UHGV virus genome: UHGV-0289455
Source: a virus
Reading direction: 5' to 3' (one strand)
Length of the DNA: 35,338 nt
Part shown: in pieces, positions 23,792-31,739 of the stretch
Layout of the letters: every line of letters begins with the position of its first letter
Numbering within the stretch: position 1 is the stretch's first letter
Position numbers and translations under genes: made by a program
The notes under the pieces: model-generated
What the model was told of the DNA's origin: nothing
Seen by the model: the letters and a program-made list of their open reading frames with translations, nothing else
Database searches by the model: none

Positions 23792-24272
23792 CGAGTAAAT
23801 CCGGTAATTTATCCCCCGCCCGCGCACACTGATTTGCCCCCTTCGCAATAAGGGTTTTCAGATGGTCAAGATGGCGCGGTGTTAAATCAGGAAACTGTCG
23901 CTGCATGGATAAAGGGATGGAATCAAGCGTACTGGATAACGCCATTGCCAGCTTGCTGAGGGCAAAAATACAGAACCCGGTATCAATAAGTTTTCCTTTT
24001 GACACCTCATTTTTTAACTGCTGTGTAACAGCCTGTTCTGCTGTCAGTTCCCATCTGGCAATAAGCAATTTCTCCTCATAGTCGTCTTCGCTATCGCCAT
24101 CAGGCACATCGTTTTTACTTCTTCTCAGATACGATATGTAAAAATCGCGCCAGGCATCCAGATCCAGTTGCCCTCGCTTATTCGATATCGGGGCACCCGG
24201 CAATTTCTGCAATCTGCGAAGCTGGCGATCGGTCAGACTTAAATGCCTGGCAACTTCAGTCTGCGTAGCCAC
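23763..24272 (-). CDS. nu1: terminase small subunit (Nu1-like) with divergent N-terminal HTH domain
   Basis: The C-terminal half (FCIFALSKLAMALSSTLDSIPLSMQRQFPDLTPRHLDHLK...LPDLLDEYI) matches lambda Nu1; the N-terminal DNA-binding part (TQTEVARHLSLTDRQLRRL) does not. Overlaps the A start as in lambda. Confidence 0.85.
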   Translation of the reverse strand: MATQTEVARHLSLTDRQLRRLQKLPGAPISNKRGQLDLDAWRDFYISYLRRSKNDVPDGDSEDDYEEKLLIARWELTAEQAVTQQLKNEVSKGKLIDTGFCIFALSKLAMALSSTLDSIPLSMQRQFPDLTPRHLDHLKTLIAKGANQCARAGDKLPDLLDEYIRATTE

Positions 24273-24467
24273 TCCTCACCTCGCAAAAACTCTCACCTCA
24301 CAATCACAACAAAACCGGTCATGTCCGGCTTACATGTCTATTTTTTGCGCATGTCCGGTTCATGGAAAGCATGTTTTTATATTTTTCATATGGTTAACTT
24401 GCAGAGAAACCGGACATGGATCCCGGAAAATTTTCATAAATAGTGAAAATCCGCGAGGTCGCCGCCC
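24273..24467 (-). other. cos: cos region: cosN (12-nt cohesive end GGGCGGCGACCT on the minus strand at 24456-24467) and cosB with three CATGTCCGG repeats
   Basis: The reverse complement of 24421-24467 reads GGGCGGCGACCTCGCGGATTTTCACTATTTATGAAAATTTTCCGG, nearly the lambda left end. Repeats catgtccgg occur near 24323 and 24352, with the inverse ccggacatg near 24410. Confidence 0.85.
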
Positions 24468-24615
24468 CGTAACCTGTTGGATCGACGGAAAGGACCCGAA
24501 AACGAGAATAATTATCACTTACAGCAAGAATCGAATCTGATCTATTATGGTGCTTGCTATTATGTGCCGGCACAAGTGCGTCGTTTACCGTCATTTCACA
24601 CAGAGGCATCATCAA

Positions 24616-24867
24616 ATGAAAATCAGAAATATTCTCGCTATCTCCCTTGCAACATCATCCTTCAGTTGCCTGGCATTTAAATCCTCGCCCAATGTGCTAC
24701 CAGGACCAACGAATCAACTAACTGCGGTAGAAAGTAAAATTATCGGACATTTTTATGCCCCACACAGTGCATTACCCGGAACAACCATCACAGGGACATG
24801 TGACGCCTCCCCCGTCCCGGGATGCACCTGTCCGTTTTGTACTATGCTGCGTAGCCAAAACCGATAA
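24616..24867 (+). CDS. small secreted cysteine-rich protein (moron next to cos)
   Basis: 83-aa ORF with an N-terminal signal-peptide-like segment (MKIRNILAISLATSSFSCLA) and a C-x7-C-x-C-x2-C cluster; opposite strand to the late operon (the orientation bor takes in lambda). No similarity to Bor noticed. Confidence 0.4.
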   Translation: MKIRNILAISLATSSFSCLAFKSSPNVLPGPTNQLTAVESKIIGHFYAPHSALPGTTITGTCDASPVPGCTCPFCTMLRSQNR

Positions 24868-24928
24868 CATCCGCATTTACCTGGTATTACATGATGAGTT
24901 CACGCAGCGACTGATAGAGGAAGGAAAG

Positions 24929-25108
24929 ATGGTTAGTAAAAGCAAGGCGCATTGCCGCCGCATGCTGCAGGCATTGCAACAGACGAGAGCAGGTATTTTT
25001 GACCAGTTGGAAAACTGCCAGCATACTTTGCCCGAGTATATCGCCATCTCATCGGAAACCAGTGCAACTCTTATTCATCGGGTTCCACCAGAGAAAAAGA
25101 AGAAATGA
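24929..25108 (+). CDS. small hypothetical protein (59 aa)
   Basis: ATG preceded by an AGGAAGGA Shine-Dalgarno; followed by a hairpin terminator at 25112-25145. Confidence 0.35.
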   Translation: MVSKSKAHCRRMLQALQQTRAGIFDQLENCQHTLPEYIAISSETSATLIHRVPPEKKKK

Positions 25109-25111
25109 ACA

Positions 25112-25145
25112 GTGAGGCGTTGTGTGGCATACAACGCCTTCTTCC
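25112..25145. terminator. bidirectional rho-independent terminator between convergent genes
   Basis: Stem aggcgttgt/acaacgcct with T-rich runs on both sides. Confidence 0.45.
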
Positions 25146-25230
25146 ATCATTCCTCGTCAGCCATGACAAAAATATAACCGCTGGCTCTTTCATTTTTCTC
25201 CTGCGTCCAGCCCCTCTCTACCTGGAAGCA

Positions 25231-25557
25231 TCAAGGACGTGACGGCGTAAAGATAAATTGTCTCTTCACTCCCTGACAGGGGCGATTCTTTTCAAATCGC
25301 CATTTCGCCATGGCCTTCACCACTTCATCACGAAACAAATTATGAGGCTCTGAGCGGAGAAAAACGATCCGTGTCACAGTCCCATCAGCACCAATATCGA
25401 ACTTAACCTCAACCAGCCCCTTGATATAATTTGCTGCAGCATATTCCGGATATCGTGGATACACCGTCACTAATTGCCGGGGCTCATCAGCTTTTTGCTG
25501 CGAGCATCCCACTGCCAGGACAGATAACAGAAAAAGTAGTAAAAGGCGTCTTTTCAT
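25231..25557 (-). CDS. small lipoprotein consisting of a TonB C-terminal-like domain
   Basis: Start taken at MKRRLLLLFLLSVLAVGCSQQ (lipobox-like AVG-C). The rest (YPRYPEYAAANYIKGLVEVKFDIGADGTVTRIVFLRSEPHNLFRDEVVKAMAKWRFE) aligns by eye with the C-terminal domain of E. coli TonB. Confidence 0.6.
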   Translation of the reverse strand: MKRRLLLLFLLSVLAVGCSQQKADEPRQLVTVYPRYPEYAAANYIKGLVEVKFDIGADGTVTRIVFLRSEPHNLFRDEVVKAMAKWRFEKNRPCQGVKRQFIFTPSRP

Positions 25558-25867
25558 TTTTATTCCTACGGGTCTTATTCTGACAATATATCCTGTGTTC
25601 CAGACTGCCACATCACCACATCCTGTGCCATTATCTGACTCACATTACATACATCGCATCGGGATACAGTAGTAGCACTTTCTGTAATACAGCTTCCTGT
25701 TTCTTCCACCATCGCACCGGGATAAACCCGCGAATCATTAACGCGGTAAAAACCCGGTGTGCATCGTTTTTAATTATCCCCGCACACTCGCGCAGAGGAG
25801 TCTCCCTGTCGGGCTGCGGTCTCTGTTAATGAGGGAATATAGCGACGATACGGCGCATCAACAAAAC

Positions 25868-26341
25868 TTATTTCAGGCACTGAGTGCGGATATAGTCCTG
25901 TGCCCCTTCCAGTTGCTTGTGCATCGTCATCAGCCGCTCTCTGAGGGTGAAATAATCCCGTGTAACGGTGTCTGCCAGTTGGGGGCCGGTTGCATTATCC
26001 ACGCCGGAGGTGGTGGGGGCTTCACGCACGGAGCCTGGACAGGTGGCGTTGATCCGCAGGCGCTTACGACCAGCGGCAACGTCAGCGCGAAGAGTTTCAT
26101 TTTCAGCTCTCGCATCGGCTAATTCCCTCGAGTATTTTGCATCGAGCGCAGCAACATCGCGCTGGCGCACCTGCATATCAGTAATGGTTGCGTTCGCCAG
26201 CTTCAGTTCACTGGCTTTGTTATCGCGCTGCGCTTTGTAGGTAATCGCGTTATCACGGTAATGGTCTGTTGCCATCCACAGCGCACCACAGGCCACCAGC
26301 AGAATAACGATAAACGCGGAAAGCATTCGGTTTATGTTCAC
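25868..26341 (-). CDS. Rz: i-spanin Rz
   Basis: 157 aa, N-terminal TM then ...[59 protein letters not shown]...[24 protein letters not shown] matches lambda Rz. Confidence 0.92.
25930..26115 (-). CDS. Rz1: o-spanin Rz1 (lipoprotein, embedded in Rz in the +1 frame)
   Basis: [22 protein letters not shown]...[30 protein letters not shown] matches lambda Rz1. Confidence 0.9.
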
Positions 26342-26469
26342 CCCAGCAACCCCGACGAAGACAACATCATCCAGGCCATGGAAAGAAAAAGAGCAACCAG
26401 CATTAGTGAAAATGAAATGCCGACAATTACACAGAGGATCTTCGCCAGCGTTATGAGTTTGTCTGACAT
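26338..26469 (-). CDS. 43-aa single-pass membrane protein between R and Rz
   Basis: ATG preceded by a strong Shine-Dalgarno (AGGGAGGA, 6-nt spacer); stop overlaps the Rz start. One hydrophobic helix ([26 protein letters not shown]). Confidence 0.45.
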
Positions 26470-26822: not shown

Positions 26823-27356
26823 TTATCTGTCGATACCCCAGCACGCCAGCGCGCTCTCCTGGTCACGACGGGATACCTGACCGTAACAGTTGTTTGAACG
26901 AATACGGCAGTCTCTGCCACCGTCCTTAATCCACCAGCGAATCGCTTCGCAGGCACCTTTTCGATCACCAGCATTAATTCGTCTGTAAAACGTCGACGGG
27001 AAACACTTACCGGGACCAATGTTGTACGGACAGAATGACGCGATCCCCGCTTTCTGGGGTTCGGTCAGCGGCACTCTGATGTTTTTCTCCACCCACGCCA
27101 GCGCTTTATCACGCTCAATGGCGTTAACCTGGTCGCATTTTTCCTTCGACAACTTCATGCCCGGAACGACAGGTTTGCCATCCACCATGATGGCACCACG
27201 GCAGATGGTCCAGATACCTGCACCATCACGGTATGCCGTGGTGTGGTTGCCTTCCTTTTCATCCAGAAACTGGTCGAGAATGTCAGGCGCAGGCGCACCA
27301 GCGGCAATCAGCGCCAGAACGGCAGCCGACAGGCCGTATTTGATTTTGGTGTTCAT
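26823..27356 (-). CDS. R: SAR endolysin (phage-21 R-like lysozyme with N-terminal signal-arrest-release segment)
   Basis: 177 aa; N-terminal weakly hydrophobic Ala/Gly-rich segment (YGLSAAVLALIAAGAPAP), then a lysozyme-like E...D...GIWT.C.G pattern. Confidence 0.8.
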   Translation of the reverse strand: MNTKIKYGLSAAVLALIAAGAPAPDILDQFLDEKEGNHTTAYRDGAGIWTICRGAIMVDGKPVVPGMKLSKEKCDQVNAIERDKALAWVEKNIRVPLTEPQKAGIASFCPYNIGPGKCFPSTFYRRINAGDRKGACEAIRWWIKDGGRDCRIRSNNCYGQVSRRDQESALACWGIDR

Positions 27357-29181: not shown

Positions 29182-31158
29182 TCATGCCGCGATGTCCGCG
29201 TTGTTCACTTCCACCTTCACACTGTCAATCAGCAGCGTATATGTCGCCGCCTTTGATATGCCTGTCAGTTGCAGTTTGTCCGCCGCCCCTGATGCCGGAG
29301 ATTTCACCAGTGTGAACGGCGTCCCCCGTTTCTCATCCAGTACCGGCGTCACCTGAATGCTGTTGTTTCCGGCAAACTCAAAAGCCAGTGTGTGCCATCC
29401 GTTATCAAAGACCCCGAACGTTTCCAGCTTCGCATTCGGCTTCTTGTGGTGCATCGCGTTCAGGTTCGTCGCATCCGTCTGCAGAAAGAAGGACATCAGC
29501 ATGTCGTTGCCTTCCTCTGCCAGCGTCACTCCCTCCGGCAGGGACGACAACTGCCAGTAAATGCCCAGGGCAAACTGATTCGGCACCAGTGAACCCGGCA
29601 ACTTAAACCGTACGCTCACACGTCCCCCCTTCTTCAGTAACTCCACTCCCTGTCCGGCTGCATCATGCTCCAGAAACCAGATGTGGTTTTCCGGTTTATT
29701 CAGTTGCAGGGCCTTACCTCCCGTAGCCCCCGCATCACTGACCACCGCTTCAGCAATGTTTTTGTTAACATTGTCTCCGCTCGCCGGTTTGTGATAATAG
29801 CGCCAGCCCTGTGATGCCAGGTCTTCGCCGGACGCCAGCAGACTCATCAGGGTTCGGTTACTGACCGGGGCTTCCGGCTCTCTCTCCGTACCTTCACCGG
29901 AAGGTCCGGTGGGCTTCACCGTATCAGGCTGTTTTCCGGTAATGAATTCAGCGTTTCTCCCGGCATGCACAAGAATCGCCGTTGCCAGACGGTCGGAAAT
30001 AATCCCACGACGTGCCCATGATCCAAAATGCGTTTTACGGTCAGCCGTCGTCCAGGTTTTGGCGTCCGTTCGACCACCGGCTCCGTAATACCCAATATCC
30101 GCAACATCCGGATCTTCTGACGGCTCGTTGGTACCCACATTTCGCCCGTTTTCATCCGTCATAAACGGCACAAAGAAGATTTTTTTTGCGGATTTCGTCT
30201 TGTATGCACCATACACCGCATCGTATTGCGAAGAATAAGTCTGCTTCCAGTAGTAGGTCGTGTCGCCACAAATCCAGGGAACCGATGACGGAGAGCCCCC
30301 GAGACACTGACCTCCGAATTCCGACAGGTCAGAACGATATTTTTCCACCATGGAATCAAACAGCCCCGGCTGGGTGGCGTATGCACCCTGTTTCAAATCA
30401 AACTCGCCCTGCATCCAGACCACTGCAAGCAGAATATTTTTAGGGTTGGCCTTCAGTGCGGCCTGAGTACGGGTAAGCAGGTCCTTGTACAGTGGCTTAT
30501 CTACACCCCAGCGTGCCGAGGTCTCGCTTGCGCCGGTGGATTCGCTGAAGGTACCTTCATCGCCCGCCAAAAATGCAGAACCACCACGGCAGCACGGAAC
30601 CAGAAGAATACCGGCATTCGCCGGAATAAACGGCAACAATTTCTTCGCGATATGTAATCCCTGCCCCACGCATCCATACTGAGCTGCACTGGCTTTCGGG
30701 TGTGAAAACTTACTCAAATCCTGAACATCATGCAGGCAGTGGTCCGCAGGAATAATGTCATTGTAGTTACAGAACGCACCACCCGGCGTGACAGTGCTGC
30801 GACGCGCCAGCTGTTTAATACGCGGGTCCGGACGGTCATATGTCTCCGGCAGCGGAAGCCCTTCACCATACGCCATACCGTTTGACTGCCCGGCCAGGGC
30901 AACAACAAAGTAATACTCCGGGTTGCTGGTGGTGCTGATAACTGCGCCTTCTCCATCCGACGGCTTCACCACCACAGGTGTGGTGACATCACCTTCCGCC
31001 GCAATGGCCTGCATCAGGGTATAAGGCGTGATGGCCACCGGACTGCCAAATGGCTGCCACCCCTCCTTCAGTTTTTGTGTCAGTCGTTTCGCAAGGTCTG
31101 ACGGCGATGCCGCCCTGACAACATCATAGTGTTTAAATGCCATGGTTCTTTCCACCAT
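29182..31158 (-). CDS. nanS-p: prophage-encoded sialate O-acetylesterase NanS-p (DUF1737 N-domain, SGNH/SASA esterase domain, C-terminal carbohydrate-binding region)
   Basis: 658 aa. N-terminus MAFKHYDVVRAASPSDLAKRLTQKLKEGWQPFGSPVA is the DUF1737 signature, followed by VVALAGQSNGMAYGEG (SGNH GQSN motif). Sits between the Q/tRNA region and the holin, as in Stx-phage-like prophages. Confidence 0.85.
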   Translation of the reverse strand: MVERTMAFKHYDVVRAASPSDLAKRLTQKLKEGWQPFGSPVAITPYTLMQAIAAEGDVTTPVVVKPSDGEGAVISTTSNPEYYFVVALAGQSNGMAYGEGLPLPETYDRPDPRIKQLARRSTVTPGGAFCNYNDIIPADHCLHDVQDLSKFSHPKASAAQYGCVGQGLHIAKKLLPFIPANAGILLVPCCRGGSAFLAGDEGTFSESTGASETSARWGVDKPLYKDLLTRTQAALKANPKNILLAVVWMQGEFDLKQGAYATQPGLFDSMVEKYRSDLSEFGGQCLGGSPSSVPWICGDTTYYWKQTYSSQYDAVYGAYKTKSAKKIFFVPFMTDENGRNVGTNEPSEDPDVADIGYYGAGGRTDAKTWTTADRKTHFGSWARRGIISDRLATAILVHAGRNAEFITGKQPDTVKPTGPSGEGTEREPEAPVSNRTLMSLLASGEDLASQGWRYYHKPASGDNVNKNIAEAVVSDAGATGGKALQLNKPENHIWFLEHDAAGQGVELLKKGGRVSVRFKLPGSLVPNQFALGIYWQLSSLPEGVTLAEEGNDMLMSFFLQTDATNLNAMHHKKPNAKLETFGVFDNGWHTLAFEFAGNNSIQVTPVLDEKRGTPFTLVKSPASGAADKLQLTGISKAATYTLLIDSVKVEVNNADIAA

Positions 31159-31403: not shown

Positions 31404-31739
31404 ATGAAGTGGATTGTGATTGATACAGTTATCCAACCATCATGCGGAATATCTTTTTCAGTCATATGGAGTAAAATAAAATTAATAATCTGGTATCAAT
31501 CGGATGCTTTCTTACCTCCTGAAAGTATATTTACACTGACTCACACAGGTATCATGCTCAATAACAAAGTGCTACCTGTAACCATTTACAACGTAGCACC
31601 ATTCAATAAAACATTCTGGAATTTAATCAAAAACAGCCAGGAATGTCCTACAAATACAGATAACGTATTGAATGAATGCTTTAATAACCGTTGCACTCTG
31701 CAAATATGTCCTTATGGACTAAAACAACAAAGTCCATAA
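31404..31739 (+). CDS. hypothetical protein encoded on an AT-rich moron, opposite to the late operon
   Basis: 111-aa ORF with a canonical AAGGAG Shine-Dalgarno 7 nt upstream; the surrounding segment (about 31160-31760) is conspicuously AT-rich; GC-rich hairpin at 31781-31803 downstream. Cysteine-rich C-terminal part. Confidence 0.5.

What the first reader, a model, noticed from the sequence alone, without database searches (positions are those of the whole stretch)
25231..25557. Stand-alone TonB C-terminal-domain lipoprotein next to cos: possible receptor-blocking exclusion factor
A roughly 108-aa product with a lipoprotein signal (LAVG-C, Ser at +2) whose entire mature part aligns with the TonB C-terminal domain (YP..A.A..I.G.V.VKFD...DG.V...N.F..EV..AM..WR.E). 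It lies between Rz/Rz1 and cos, a classic moron position. A lipid-anchored free TonB C-domain could occupy TonB boxes of TonB-dependent receptors and act as a decoy, analogous in logic to Cor/Llp-type exclusion lipoproteins that block FhuA. This role is my inference.
Basis: partly seen in the sequence, partly recalled or inferred. Interest (0 to 1): 0.7.

Follow-up and report, generated by a model that had tools for sequence, protein, structure and literature searches.

The report
Prophage lipoprotein mimicking TonB's C-terminal domain
A small prophage gene found in about 30% of complete E. coli genomes encodes an outer-membrane-anchored copy of only the receptor-binding end of the energy transducer TonB; it is switched on in lysogens and most likely acts as an unpowered competitor of TonB, but no one has tested this.

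Summary
Window 25557..25231 (minus strand) encodes a 108-aa prelipoprotein. Its mature part aligns without gaps to E. coli TonB 151-230 and models onto receptor-bound TonB at about 1 Å. It has no membrane anchor and no proline-rich rod, so ExbBD cannot energise it.

The gene is already annotated. It is 100% identical to phage 21 gp73 ("TonB C-terminal domain protein") and to Perceval "TonB fragment". It occurs in 1617 of 5426 complete E. coli genomes and is under purifying selection (dN/dS 0.12). Published RNA-seq for the identical allele, with an identical upstream region, shows transcription in lysogens while the flanking late genes are silent. It is therefore an expressed moron.

New here:
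- It belongs to a wider Enterobacterales family of roughly 105-135-aa lipobox+TonB_C proteins. These are chromosomal, and they are also found in four unrelated phage types, always between the lysis genes and the small terminase gene.
- Most homologues have a strong Fur box just upstream. This allele lacks one, because of a 13-nt gap relative to the sister allele.

The decoy/exclusion idea is plausible, since exported TonB periplasmic fragments are dominant-negative. It remains untested, and no paper on its function was found. Interest is moderate to high.

The parts
25231..25557 (-). CDS of the 108-aa TonB_C lipoprotein (stop codon included)
   Evidence: ORF. It is 100% identical to phage 21 CPT_21_73, Perceval PERCE_65 and RefSeq WP_000830178.1. 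dN/dS is 0.12 against the 72% allele.
25504..25557 (-). Lipoprotein signal peptide (residues 1-17) and lipobox Cys18 (codon 25506-25504); Ser19 at +2
   Evidence: It matches the PROSITE-like lipoprotein rule. Cys is invariant in 30 family members. The +2 residue is S, A, T or V and never D. Processing and outer-membrane sorting are inferred.
25249..25488 (-). TonB C-terminal domain (residues 24-103, equivalent to E. coli TonB 151-230), including the beta3 strand that pairs with TonB boxes in TonB
   Evidence: Sequence matches. AF2 and Foldseek give rmsd 0.9-1.1 Å to 2grx_C, 2gsk_B and 1u07.
25577..25585 (-). Candidate extended -10 promoter element TGTCAGAAT (TGTTAGAAT in the 72% allele and in one 100%-allele contig)
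   Evidence: It lies in the one longer conserved block (ATTGTyAGAATAAGAC), besides the ribosome-binding site and start codon, in the otherwise diverged proximal upstream region. Autonomous transcription of the identical region in lysogens requires a promoter nearby. It was not found by the consensus scan, which requires a -35 hexamer. This is an inference.
25564..25567 (-). Shine-Dalgarno AGGA, 6 nt before the ATG
   Evidence: Read from the sequence. Conserved as GGAAT in both alleles.
25665..25857 (-). Conserved non-coding lambdoid element directly downstream of Rz. It forms the upstream boundary of the cassette.
   Evidence: About 90% identical to JLK-2012, although the adjacent gene is saturated at synonymous sites. 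Found in 432 phage records, including lambda 47258-47364. No Rfam family matched, and the fold z-score was -1.3.
25115..25139 (.). GC-rich hairpin (AGGCGTTGT / ACAACGCCT) between the convergent TonB_C gene and ORF 24929-25108; possible bidirectional terminator
   Evidence: Read from the sequence. Not reported by the terminator scan because the T tract is weak. This is an inference.
25868..26341 (-). Rz i-spanin (Rz1 o-spanin embedded at 25930-26115); upstream neighbour and end of the lysis cassette
   Evidence: PF03245, E=2e-47. ORFs listed.
24456..24467 (-). cosN (GGGCGGCGACCT), the cohesive-end site
   Evidence: Alignment to both ends of the phage 21 genome.

Best explanation
The gene makes a prelipoprotein. 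After lipidation at Cys18 and Lol sorting (Ser at +2), the mature protein should sit in the inner leaflet of the outer membrane. A tether of roughly 8-10 residues would carry a complete TonB C-terminal domain. The protein has no N-terminal transmembrane helix and no proline-rich rod, so the ExbB-ExbD motor cannot energise it.

It is transcribed on its own in lysogens. The most likely mechanism is that its exposed beta3 edge pairs by strand addition with TonB boxes. These are the TonB boxes of TonB-dependent transporters and of incoming group-B colicins. The tethered domain would then compete with host TonB at the place where TonB must act. The expected result is reduced TonB-dependent entry of phages, colicins and microcins, and to some extent of nutrients. 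That would be a lysogenic-conversion or exclusion function.

Shown here: sequence, fold, family, purifying selection, lysogen transcription (from the literature), and Fur boxes upstream of homologues. Inferred: lipidation and outer-membrane location, TonB-box binding, and all phenotypes.
For: Domain and fold:
- TonB_C matches well above cutoffs.
- Gapless alignment to TonB 151-230.
- Model superposes on receptor-bound TonB at 0.9-1.1 Å.
- By the n+127 mapping, the YP motif and aromatic core are kept: Y36/P37, F53, G59, F75, W86, F88 and F103 correspond to TonB Y163/P164, F180, G186, F202, W213, Y215 and F230.

Cannot transduce energy:
- Only 108 aa, with a lipoprotein signal peptide in place of the TonB anchor.
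- TonB equivalog scores are 45-69 bits against cutoffs of 265-448.

Lipoprotein character: the lipobox is conserved across the family and no member has Asp at +2.

A real, selected gene:
- dN/dS is 0.12 overall and 0.085 in the core.
- Present in 1617 of 5426 complete E. coli genomes.

Expressed in lysogens: PERCE_65 is 8-fold above prophage background, while its neighbours Rz and terS are silent (PMC9928086). The protein and the 120-nt upstream region are identical to the window.

Link to the iron/TonB regulon: strong Fur boxes (14-17 of 19) lie 20-70 nt upstream in 10 of 13 homologous loci. The control rate is 1 of 105 other upstream regions in the same loci.

Precedent: the TonB periplasmic domain exported to the periplasm, and truncations 103-239 and 122-239, inhibit the TonB system. 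Overexpressing cells cannot transport 55Fe-ferrichrome (bioRxiv 10.1101/2020.01.05.895219).

Precedent for the logic: Llp and Cor are outer-membrane lipoproteins that act on the periplasmic face of FhuA.

Conserved position: the gene lies between the lysis genes and terS, co-oriented with them, in four unrelated phage types.
Against: - No binding or phenotype data exist for any family member. Literature searches found none.
- TonB residues reported to contact transporters are not conserved. Q160 becomes Y33 (L in the sister allele) and R166 becomes Y39.
- Constitutive expression in about 30% of E. coli genomes, including siderophore-dependent pathogens such as LF82, is hard to reconcile with strong general inhibition of TonB.
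- Chromosomal homologues are predicted to be co-induced with iron-uptake genes by Fur derepression. That fits a protein working with the TonB system at least as well as one working against it.
- PADLOC has no match.
- In the LF82 data the gene does not respond to macrophage conditions (log2FC 0.26).
Confidence: 0.42

Rival explanations
1. Accessory or regulatory component of the host TonB/iron regulon, not an exclusion factor. The outer-membrane-tethered TonB_C domain would engage transporters, or their N-terminal signalling extensions, to tune, gate or stabilise them during iron starvation. Phages would carry it as an iron-related fitness gene, as Perceval carries sitABCD.
For: - Most homologues are single chromosomal genes outside prophages.
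- They have strong Fur boxes upstream.
- Perceval carries this gene together with the sitABCD iron/manganese import morons.
Against: - No way is known for an unenergised TonB C-terminal domain to promote transport.
- Exported TonB fragments inhibit transport.
- The window allele has lost the Fur box and does not respond to macrophage conditions.
Confidence: 0.2
2. It binds host TonB itself. Its free beta3 edge would heterodimerise with the TonB C-terminal domain, as in the strand-paired TonB dimers, and sequester TonB at the outer membrane. The physiological outcome is the same but the target differs.
For: - The best structural match is 1u07, a dimeric crystal form of the TonB 92-residue fragment.
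- The protein ends at the position equivalent to TonB 235, so it lacks the last residues of TonB.
- That TonB C-terminal domains dimerise through beta3 is my recollection of the literature, not a result tested here.
Against: - In the bound complexes 2gsk and 2grx the same edge takes the TonB box, and the model fits those equally well.
- There is no direct evidence for heterodimers.
Confidence: 0.1
3. Envelope-stabilising lipoprotein. The TonB_C domain would bind peptidoglycan or another periplasmic component and tether the outer membrane. This would be a Bor-like or Pal-like fitness factor unrelated to TonB boxes.
For: - It occupies the same slot where lambda and phage 21 carry the outer-membrane lipoprotein Bor.
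- Reports that the TonB C-terminal domain binds peptidoglycan are my recollection, not tested here.
Against: - Fur boxes upstream of homologues point to iron and TonB biology.
- The closest sequence relatives are genuine enterobacterial TonB domains.
Confidence: 0.07
4. Lysis accessory or spanin, as implied by the PHROG label 'Rz-like spanin' and by its position after Rz.
For: - phrog_1267 is labelled 'Rz-like spanin', E=5e-43.
- It is a lipoprotein, lies next to the lysis cassette and is co-oriented with the late genes.
Against: - A complete Rz/Rz1 pair is already present.
- The protein is a globular TonB_C domain, not a short proline-rich o-spanin, and has no C-terminal transmembrane segment as a unimolecular spanin would.
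- It is transcribed in lysogens while S, R and Rz are silent.
- Most relatives are chromosomal.
Confidence: 0.03

Closest known systems
E. coli TonB C-terminal domain (PDB 1u07, 2gsk chain B, 2grx chain C)
   Same: About 40% identical without gaps over TonB 151-230. Same fold at about 1 Å. The YP motif, the aromatic core and the beta3 strand are retained.
   Different: No transmembrane anchor or SHLS motif, and no proline-rich spacer. A lipoprotein signal takes their place. It stops at the position equivalent to TonB 235. Q160 and R166 are replaced by Y33 and Y39. It scores far below the TonB equivalog cutoffs.
Engineered periplasmic TonB fragments (signal peptide fused to TonB 33-239, 103-239 or 122-239)
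   Same: A TonB C-terminal domain delivered to the periplasm without connection to ExbBD. The engineered versions are dominant-negative for ferrichrome transport.
   Different: The engineered fragments are soluble, overexpressed and artificial. This protein is natural, shorter, lipid-anchored (predicted at the outer membrane) and expressed at a moderate level.
Cor (phi80, N15, HK022) and Llp (T5) superinfection-exclusion lipoproteins
   Same: Small phage-encoded outer-membrane inner-leaflet lipoproteins that act on the periplasmic face of a TonB-dependent transporter. Cor is expressed from prophages.
   Different: The fold is unrelated. Foldseek finds only TonB domains and nothing in the viral library. 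Cor and Llp are specific for FhuA and work allosterically. This protein would target the generic TonB box.
Lambda Bor and other morons between the lysis genes and cos
   Same: Same genomic slot. An outer-membrane lipoprotein transcribed in the lysogen.
   Different: Bor is on the opposite strand and belongs to the Iss family. In LF82, bor is induced strongly in macrophages whereas this gene is not.
Chromosomal lipobox+TonB_C proteins of Klebsiella, Raoultella, Serratia, Erwinia, Pantoea and Rahnella (all annotated only as 'TonB family protein')
   Same: Same architecture and length, with an invariant lipobox Cys. They share the S-x-P-x-H-L-F-D and K-W-R-F-E motifs and are 31-44% identical overall (up to 49% over the domain). 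A neighbour-joining tree groups the E. coli prophage alleles with the Klebsiella/Raoultella set.
   Different: Most are chromosomal and preceded by a strong Fur box. The window allele is prophage-borne and lacks one. The tree was not bootstrapped, and distances to true TonB domains are similar (40-44%).

Membership tests
TonB_C domain (Pfam PF03544 / TIGR01352) | Profile score above the curated cutoff | tested here: met
   PF03544 scores 49.2 bits against 24.6. TIGR01352 scores 47.4 against 27.1. All 30 family members match.
TonB_C domain (Pfam PF03544 / TIGR01352) | Fold of two helices and a three-stranded sheet that superposes on solved TonB C-terminal domains | tested here: met
   AF2 pLDDT is 95-98 in the domain. 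Foldseek gives 1u07_A at E=1.7e-8 and rmsd 1.1 Å, 2gsk_B at TM 0.93, and 2grx_C at rmsd 0.9 Å.
TonB energy transducer (NCBIfam NF008080-NF008084) | N-terminal transmembrane anchor that couples to ExbB/ExbD | tested here: not met
   The N-terminus is a cleavable lipoprotein signal peptide. The equivalog scores are 45-69 bits against cutoffs of 265-448, and only the C-terminal part of each profile is matched.
TonB energy transducer (NCBIfam NF008080-NF008084) | Proline-rich periplasm-spanning spacer | tested here: not met
   Only 5-8 residues separate Cys18 from the start of the aligned TonB_C domain at residue 24-26, 15 from the PxYP motif.
Bacterial outer-membrane lipoprotein | Lipobox with an invariant Cys after a basic and hydrophobic signal; no Asp at +2 | tested here: met
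   29 of 30 family members pass the PROSITE-like rule. The +2 residue is S, A, T or V. Cys is invariant.
Bacterial outer-membrane lipoprotein | Actual acylation, Lsp cleavage and Lol-dependent outer-membrane localisation | not testable with these tools
   Needs globomycin or palmitate labelling and membrane fractionation.
Moron (autonomously expressed prophage accessory gene) | Transcribed in the lysogen independently of the flanking late genes | tested here: met
   From the literature on the identical allele. PERCE_65 has log2 fpkm 5.0-6.6, against 2.3-3.7 for Rz and 2.3-4.3 for terS, and is 8-fold above background (PMC9928086). The upstream 120 nt is identical.
Moron (autonomously expressed prophage accessory gene) | Own promoter and terminator | tested here: inconclusive
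   The consensus scan finds no sigma-70 promoter on this strand. A conserved extended -10 candidate lies at 25577-25585 and a hairpin at 25115-25139. Neither has been verified.
Cor/Llp exclusion lipoproteins | Llp/Cor fold | tested here: not met
   All significant PDB matches are TonB C-terminal domains; the weaker tail of the list is TolA domains and chance hits, with no Llp or Cor entry. There is no hit with E<=0.001 in the viral structure library.
Cor/Llp exclusion lipoproteins | Blocks infection through a TonB-dependent transporter | not testable with these tools
   Needs plating assays with T1, phi80, T5 and H8 on cells expressing the gene.
Spanin (PHROG phrog_1267 label) | Either an o-spanin partner of an i-spanin, or a unimolecular spanin with a C-terminal transmembrane segment | tested here: not met
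   A separate Rz/Rz1 pair is present. The protein is a globular TonB_C domain with no C-terminal hydrophobic segment. Most relatives are chromosomal.
Fur regulon | Fur box (GATAATGATAATCATTATC) overlapping the promoter | tested here: not met
   The best match for the window allele is 11 of 19, at -185, which is background level. The 72% allele has 13 of 19 at -35. Homologues have 14-17 of 19 at -19 to -70 in 10 of 13 loci, against 1 of 105 control regions. Binding by Fur was not tested.

The most novel reading that the evidence does not exclude
Enterobacterales carry a previously unrecognised family of Fur-controlled, outer-membrane-tethered TonB C-terminal-domain paralogues. These would act as built-in competitive inhibitors, or 'shields', of the TonB system. 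They would be induced together with the transporters to blunt entry of TonB-dependent phages, colicins and siderophore-microcins. Temperate phages of at least four types have captured the gene into the slot between lysis and terminase. The common E. coli allele has lost its Fur operator and so provides constitutive, broad exclusion. This would be a mechanism distinct from the receptor-specific Cor/Llp lipoproteins.
Probability: 0.28. Interest if true: 0.8.

Novelty: new variant of a known kind. Interest (0 to 1): 0.6.

Why it matters
TonB-dependent transporters are the entry route for many phages, group-B colicins, siderophore-microcins and siderophore-antibiotic conjugates such as cefiderocol-type 'Trojan horses'. 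A natural, lipid-anchored TonB mimic in about 30% of E. coli genomes could shift sensitivity to all of these. It could also shift iron acquisition, with consequences for phage therapy, bacteriocin-based competition in the gut and drug uptake. It would be the first natural protein inhibitor of the TonB-TonB-box contact, and a generic rather than receptor-specific exclusion strategy. The experiments needed are simple. Even if the decoy idea fails, a predicted Fur-regulated lipoprotein family with no known function is a worthwhile target.

Tried and rejected
- Nine literature searches found no functional study of this protein. The only direct data are its listing as an expressed moron in LF82.
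- PADLOC gave no match.
- The sigma-70 consensus scan found no promoter on the gene's strand in the 310-bp gap.
- Rfam on 24200-26000 gave only a chance miRNA hit.
- The conserved upstream element does not fold unusually well, z = -1.3.
- The first AF2 run, with 6 close sequences, was poor (pLDDT 61). It was replaced by a run with 30 sequences.
It was rerun with the narrower A5.
- The receptor specificity of the prophage's J protein could not be assigned. Its C-terminus matches long-tailed Stx and ECOR phages with no named receptor, so a link between the phage's own receptor and this gene could not be tested.
- The spanin reading (PHROG label) was rejected.
- The 'dead TonB fragment' reading was rejected on dN/dS and lipobox conservation.
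- Complex prediction with TonB-box peptides was not possible, because only window or database sequences may be submitted.

Full report
**What is there**

Window 25557..25231 on the minus strand is a 108-aa ORF:

MKRRLLLLFLLSVLAVGCSQQKADEPRQLVTVYPRYPEYAAANYIKGLVEVKFDIGADGTVTRIVFLRSEPHNLFRDEVVKAMAKWRFEKNRPCQGVKRQFIFTPSRP

An AGGA ribosome-binding site precedes the ATG. The N-terminus is a lipoprotein signal: basic MKRR, a hydrophobic core, the lipobox A-V-G-C18, and Ser at +2. It passes a PROSITE-type lipoprotein rule.

Residues 24-103 align without a gap to E. coli TonB residues 151-230, as present in the solved structures 1u07, 2gsk and 2grx (E about 1e-14). Pfam TonB_C and TIGR01352 are both well above their curated cutoffs. 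An AlphaFold2 model built on a 30-sequence family alignment is confident, with pLDDT 95-98 across the domain. It superposes on TonB from the BtuB:TonB complex at 1.1 Å (TM 0.93) and on TonB from the FhuA:TonB complex at 0.9 Å.

Using the mapping 'residue n = TonB n+127', the YP motif and the aromatic core are retained: Y36/P37, F53, G59, F75, W86, F88 and F103. So is the beta3 strand, which in TonB pairs with the TonB box (quotes this for FhuA). Two reported contact residues differ: Q160 is Y33 and R166 is Y39.

The protein ends at the position equivalent to TonB 235. It has no TonB transmembrane anchor and no proline-rich rod. The TonB equivalog models score only 45-69 bits against cutoffs of 265-448. 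It is therefore a TonB C-terminal domain that cannot be coupled to ExbB-ExbD.

**Genomic setting**

The window is an E. coli lambdoid prophage, identical over the 2.1-kb query (24300-26400) to several RefSeq chromosomes. The order on the minus strand is:
- lysozyme (26823-27356)
- Rz/Rz1 (25868-26341 and 25930-26115)
- a 310-bp gap
- this gene
- two small opposite-strand ORFs
- cosN (24456-24467)
- Nu1 and A

**Already annotated, and common**

The protein is 100% identical to:
- phage 21 CPT_21_73, 'TonB C-terminal domain protein'
- ev017, 'partial tonB-like membrane protein encoded within prophage CP-933N'
- Perceval PERCE_65, 'TonB fragment'
- RefSeq WP_000830178.1, 'TonB family protein'

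The gene is present in 1617 of 5426 complete E. coli genomes. Of these, 1202 have at least 99% identity and about 390 carry a roughly 73% nucleotide allele.

The two alleles are saturated at synonymous sites (dS about 1.5) but have dN/dS 0.12 overall and 0.085 in the domain core. The lipobox is conserved. This is a selected gene, not a dead fragment of tonB.

**Expression**

Misson et al. 2023 (PMC9928086) list Perceval LF82_160 'TonB fragment' among the morons of E. coli LF82, at 8-fold above prophage background in LB. Their table gives log2 fpkm 5.0-6.6 in all ten samples. The flanking genes are much lower: Rz at 2.3-3.7 and the small terminase subunit at 2.3-4.3. There is no significant change between macrophage and LB conditions (log2FC 0.26), while the neighbouring bor rises by 7 log2 units.

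The 1391-bp block from window 25857 to 24468 is 98.6% identical to Perceval, and the 120 nt upstream of the ATG are identical. This evidence therefore transfers to the window: the gene has its own promoter and is on in lysogens.

A strict -35/-10 scan finds no promoter. Apart from the ribosome-binding site and start codon, the one longer conserved block in the diverged proximal upstream region is ATTGTyAGAATAAGAC. It reads as an extended -10 element, TGTCAGAAT at 25585-25577 (TGTTAGAAT in the sister allele). That assignment is an inference.

**A wider family, and a link to iron**

A profile search of 1.84 billion representatives, followed by further searches, found short proteins (roughly 105-135 aa) with the same architecture. 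They occur in Klebsiella, Raoultella, Serratia, Erwinia, Pantoea, Rahnella and a Salmonella-labelled genome. The lipobox Cys is invariant in 30 aligned members, and none has Asp at +2. NCBIfam has no dedicated model for them.

Most are single chromosomal genes in unrelated, non-phage neighbourhoods. There is also a phage subset in which the position is always the same: after the lysis genes, before the small terminase gene, and co-oriented with the late genes. The four phage types are:
- phage 21 and Perceval (lambda-type cos)
- JLK-2012 and Stx1a phages (HNH/terS type)
- Klebsiella phage ST13-OXA48phi12.4
- a Serratia prophage with the order Mom, holin, lysozyme, DUF2570, TonB_C, terS, portal

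In 10 of 13 homologous loci a 14-17 of 19 match to the Fur box consensus lies 20-70 nt upstream of the true start codon. This includes the Serratia prophage copy (16 of 19). Pantoea agglomerans adds another case (16 of 19), where the annotated N-terminal extension simply translates the Fur box.

In the same loci, only 1 of 105 upstream regions of other ORFs reaches 14 of 19. Almost every site scoring 15 or more in about 190 kb lies directly in front of a family gene.

The 72% E. coli allele has a weaker site (13 of 19). It is a palindrome, AGAATAAG-A-CTTATTCT, that overlaps the candidate -10. The window allele has a 13-nt gap that removes half of this palindrome, and it has no Fur-like site above background. 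That fits its flat expression in LF82.

Fur binding has not been tested. The pattern nevertheless ties the family to the iron/TonB regulon.

**Mechanism**

The best-supported reading is an outer-membrane-tethered, unpowered TonB mimic. Lipidation and Lol sorting (inferred) would place the domain on a tether of about 8-10 residues under the outer membrane. That is where TonB boxes emerge. Its free beta3 edge could take a TonB box by strand addition, as TonB does in 2gsk and 2grx. Without energy input, that engagement is non-productive and competes with TonB.

The precedent is experimental. TonB periplasmic fragments (33-239, 103-239, 122-239) exported to the periplasm inhibit the TonB system, and overexpressing cells cannot transport 55Fe-ferrichrome. 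The logic resembles Cor and Llp, which are outer-membrane lipoproteins acting on the periplasmic face of FhuA. The fold is unrelated, however, and the viral structure library holds nothing similar.

Several points count against a strong, general block:
- the gene is expressed constitutively in about 30% of E. coli genomes
- chromosomal homologues would be co-induced with iron uptake
- Q160 and R166 are not conserved
- no phenotype has been reported

I put this explanation at about 0.4. The rivals are:
- a tuning or accessory role within the iron regulon (0.2)
- sequestration of TonB itself by heterodimerisation (0.1)
- an envelope-tethering or peptidoglycan-binding role (0.07)
- a lysis or spanin role (0.03), which I reject because a full Rz/Rz1 pair is present, the protein is globular with no C-terminal membrane segment, and it is transcribed while the lysis genes are silent

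**Relationship to TonB**

Over the domain, the window protein is 40-44% identical to genuine enterobacterial TonB domains and 42-49% identical to the Klebsiella/Raoultella lipoproteins. An unbootstrapped neighbour-joining tree places it with the latter. Whether phages took the gene from the chromosomal lipoprotein family or the reverse is not resolved.

**Verdict**

The moron status is supported by published transcriptomics. The decoy/exclusion function is plausible, has precedent and is easy to test, but is unproven.

The new findings here are the family-wide lipoprotein architecture, the recurrent phage slot, the predicted Fur control of homologues, and its loss in this allele.

Noticed in passing
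window 25665-25857 (minus strand), directly downstream of the Rz stop: A non-coding stretch of about 110-195 nt is about 90% conserved between phages whose adjacent TonB_C alleles are saturated at synonymous sites. It occurs in 432 phage records, including lambda at 47258-47364. There is no Rfam match and no unusual folding energy. It may be a recombination linker or a late-transcript element.
   Followed up: partly
window 24616-24867 (+): An 83-aa ORF on the strand opposite to the late genes. It has a Sec-type signal peptide (MKIRNILAISLATSSFSCLA|FK) and a Cys-rich C-terminus (TCDASPVPGCTCPFC). It matched no Pfam, NCBIfam, PHROG or PADLOC family. It is found only in the 7 phage records that carry the 100% TonB_C allele, and is not annotated in Perceval.
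   Followed up: partly
window 24929-25108 (+): A 59-aa ORF convergent with the TonB_C gene, matching phrog_4843 end to end (E=4e-47). RefSeq annotates it as WP_000253883.1. The phage 21 GenBank record instead annotates two different ORFs on the other strand in this region.
   Followed up: no
PHROG phrog_1267 (matched by window 25231-25557): This PHROG family is labelled 'Rz-like spanin', but the query it matches end to end is a TonB_C lipoprotein. The label is probably positional mis-annotation and will spread through PHROG-based annotation pipelines.
   Followed up: partly
L131:6001-6072, L129:3923-3955, proteins P0185 and P0042: Database start codons of several homologues are set too far upstream. 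The extra N-terminal residues (for example KYNDNVYQQKD) are a translation of the Fur box and promoter. The true start is the Met that begins the lipoprotein signal peptide.
   Followed up: yes
window about 25571 versus L128:2975-2990 (JLK-2012 allele): A 13-nt indel separates the two E. coli alleles. The 72% allele has a perfect 8-1-8 palindrome, AGAATAAG-A-CTTATTCT, overlapping the candidate -10, with 13 of 19 matches to the Fur consensus. The window allele retains only the left half.
   Followed up: partly
window 31404-31739 (+) and 29182-31158 (-): By coordinate offset from the identical RefSeq prophage (not aligned directly), ORF 31404-31739 corresponds to an IraM anti-adapter homologue on the opposite strand and ORF 29182-31158 to a SASA-family carbohydrate esterase upstream of the lysis genes. 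These are further likely accessory genes of this prophage.
   Followed up: no
Perceval prophage (OV696612.1), related to window 24468-25857: The prophage in which the identical TonB_C allele was shown to be expressed also carries the sitABCD iron/manganese importer as expressed morons. This hints at an iron-related accessory gene set. Whether the window's prophage carries sit was not checked.
   Followed up: no
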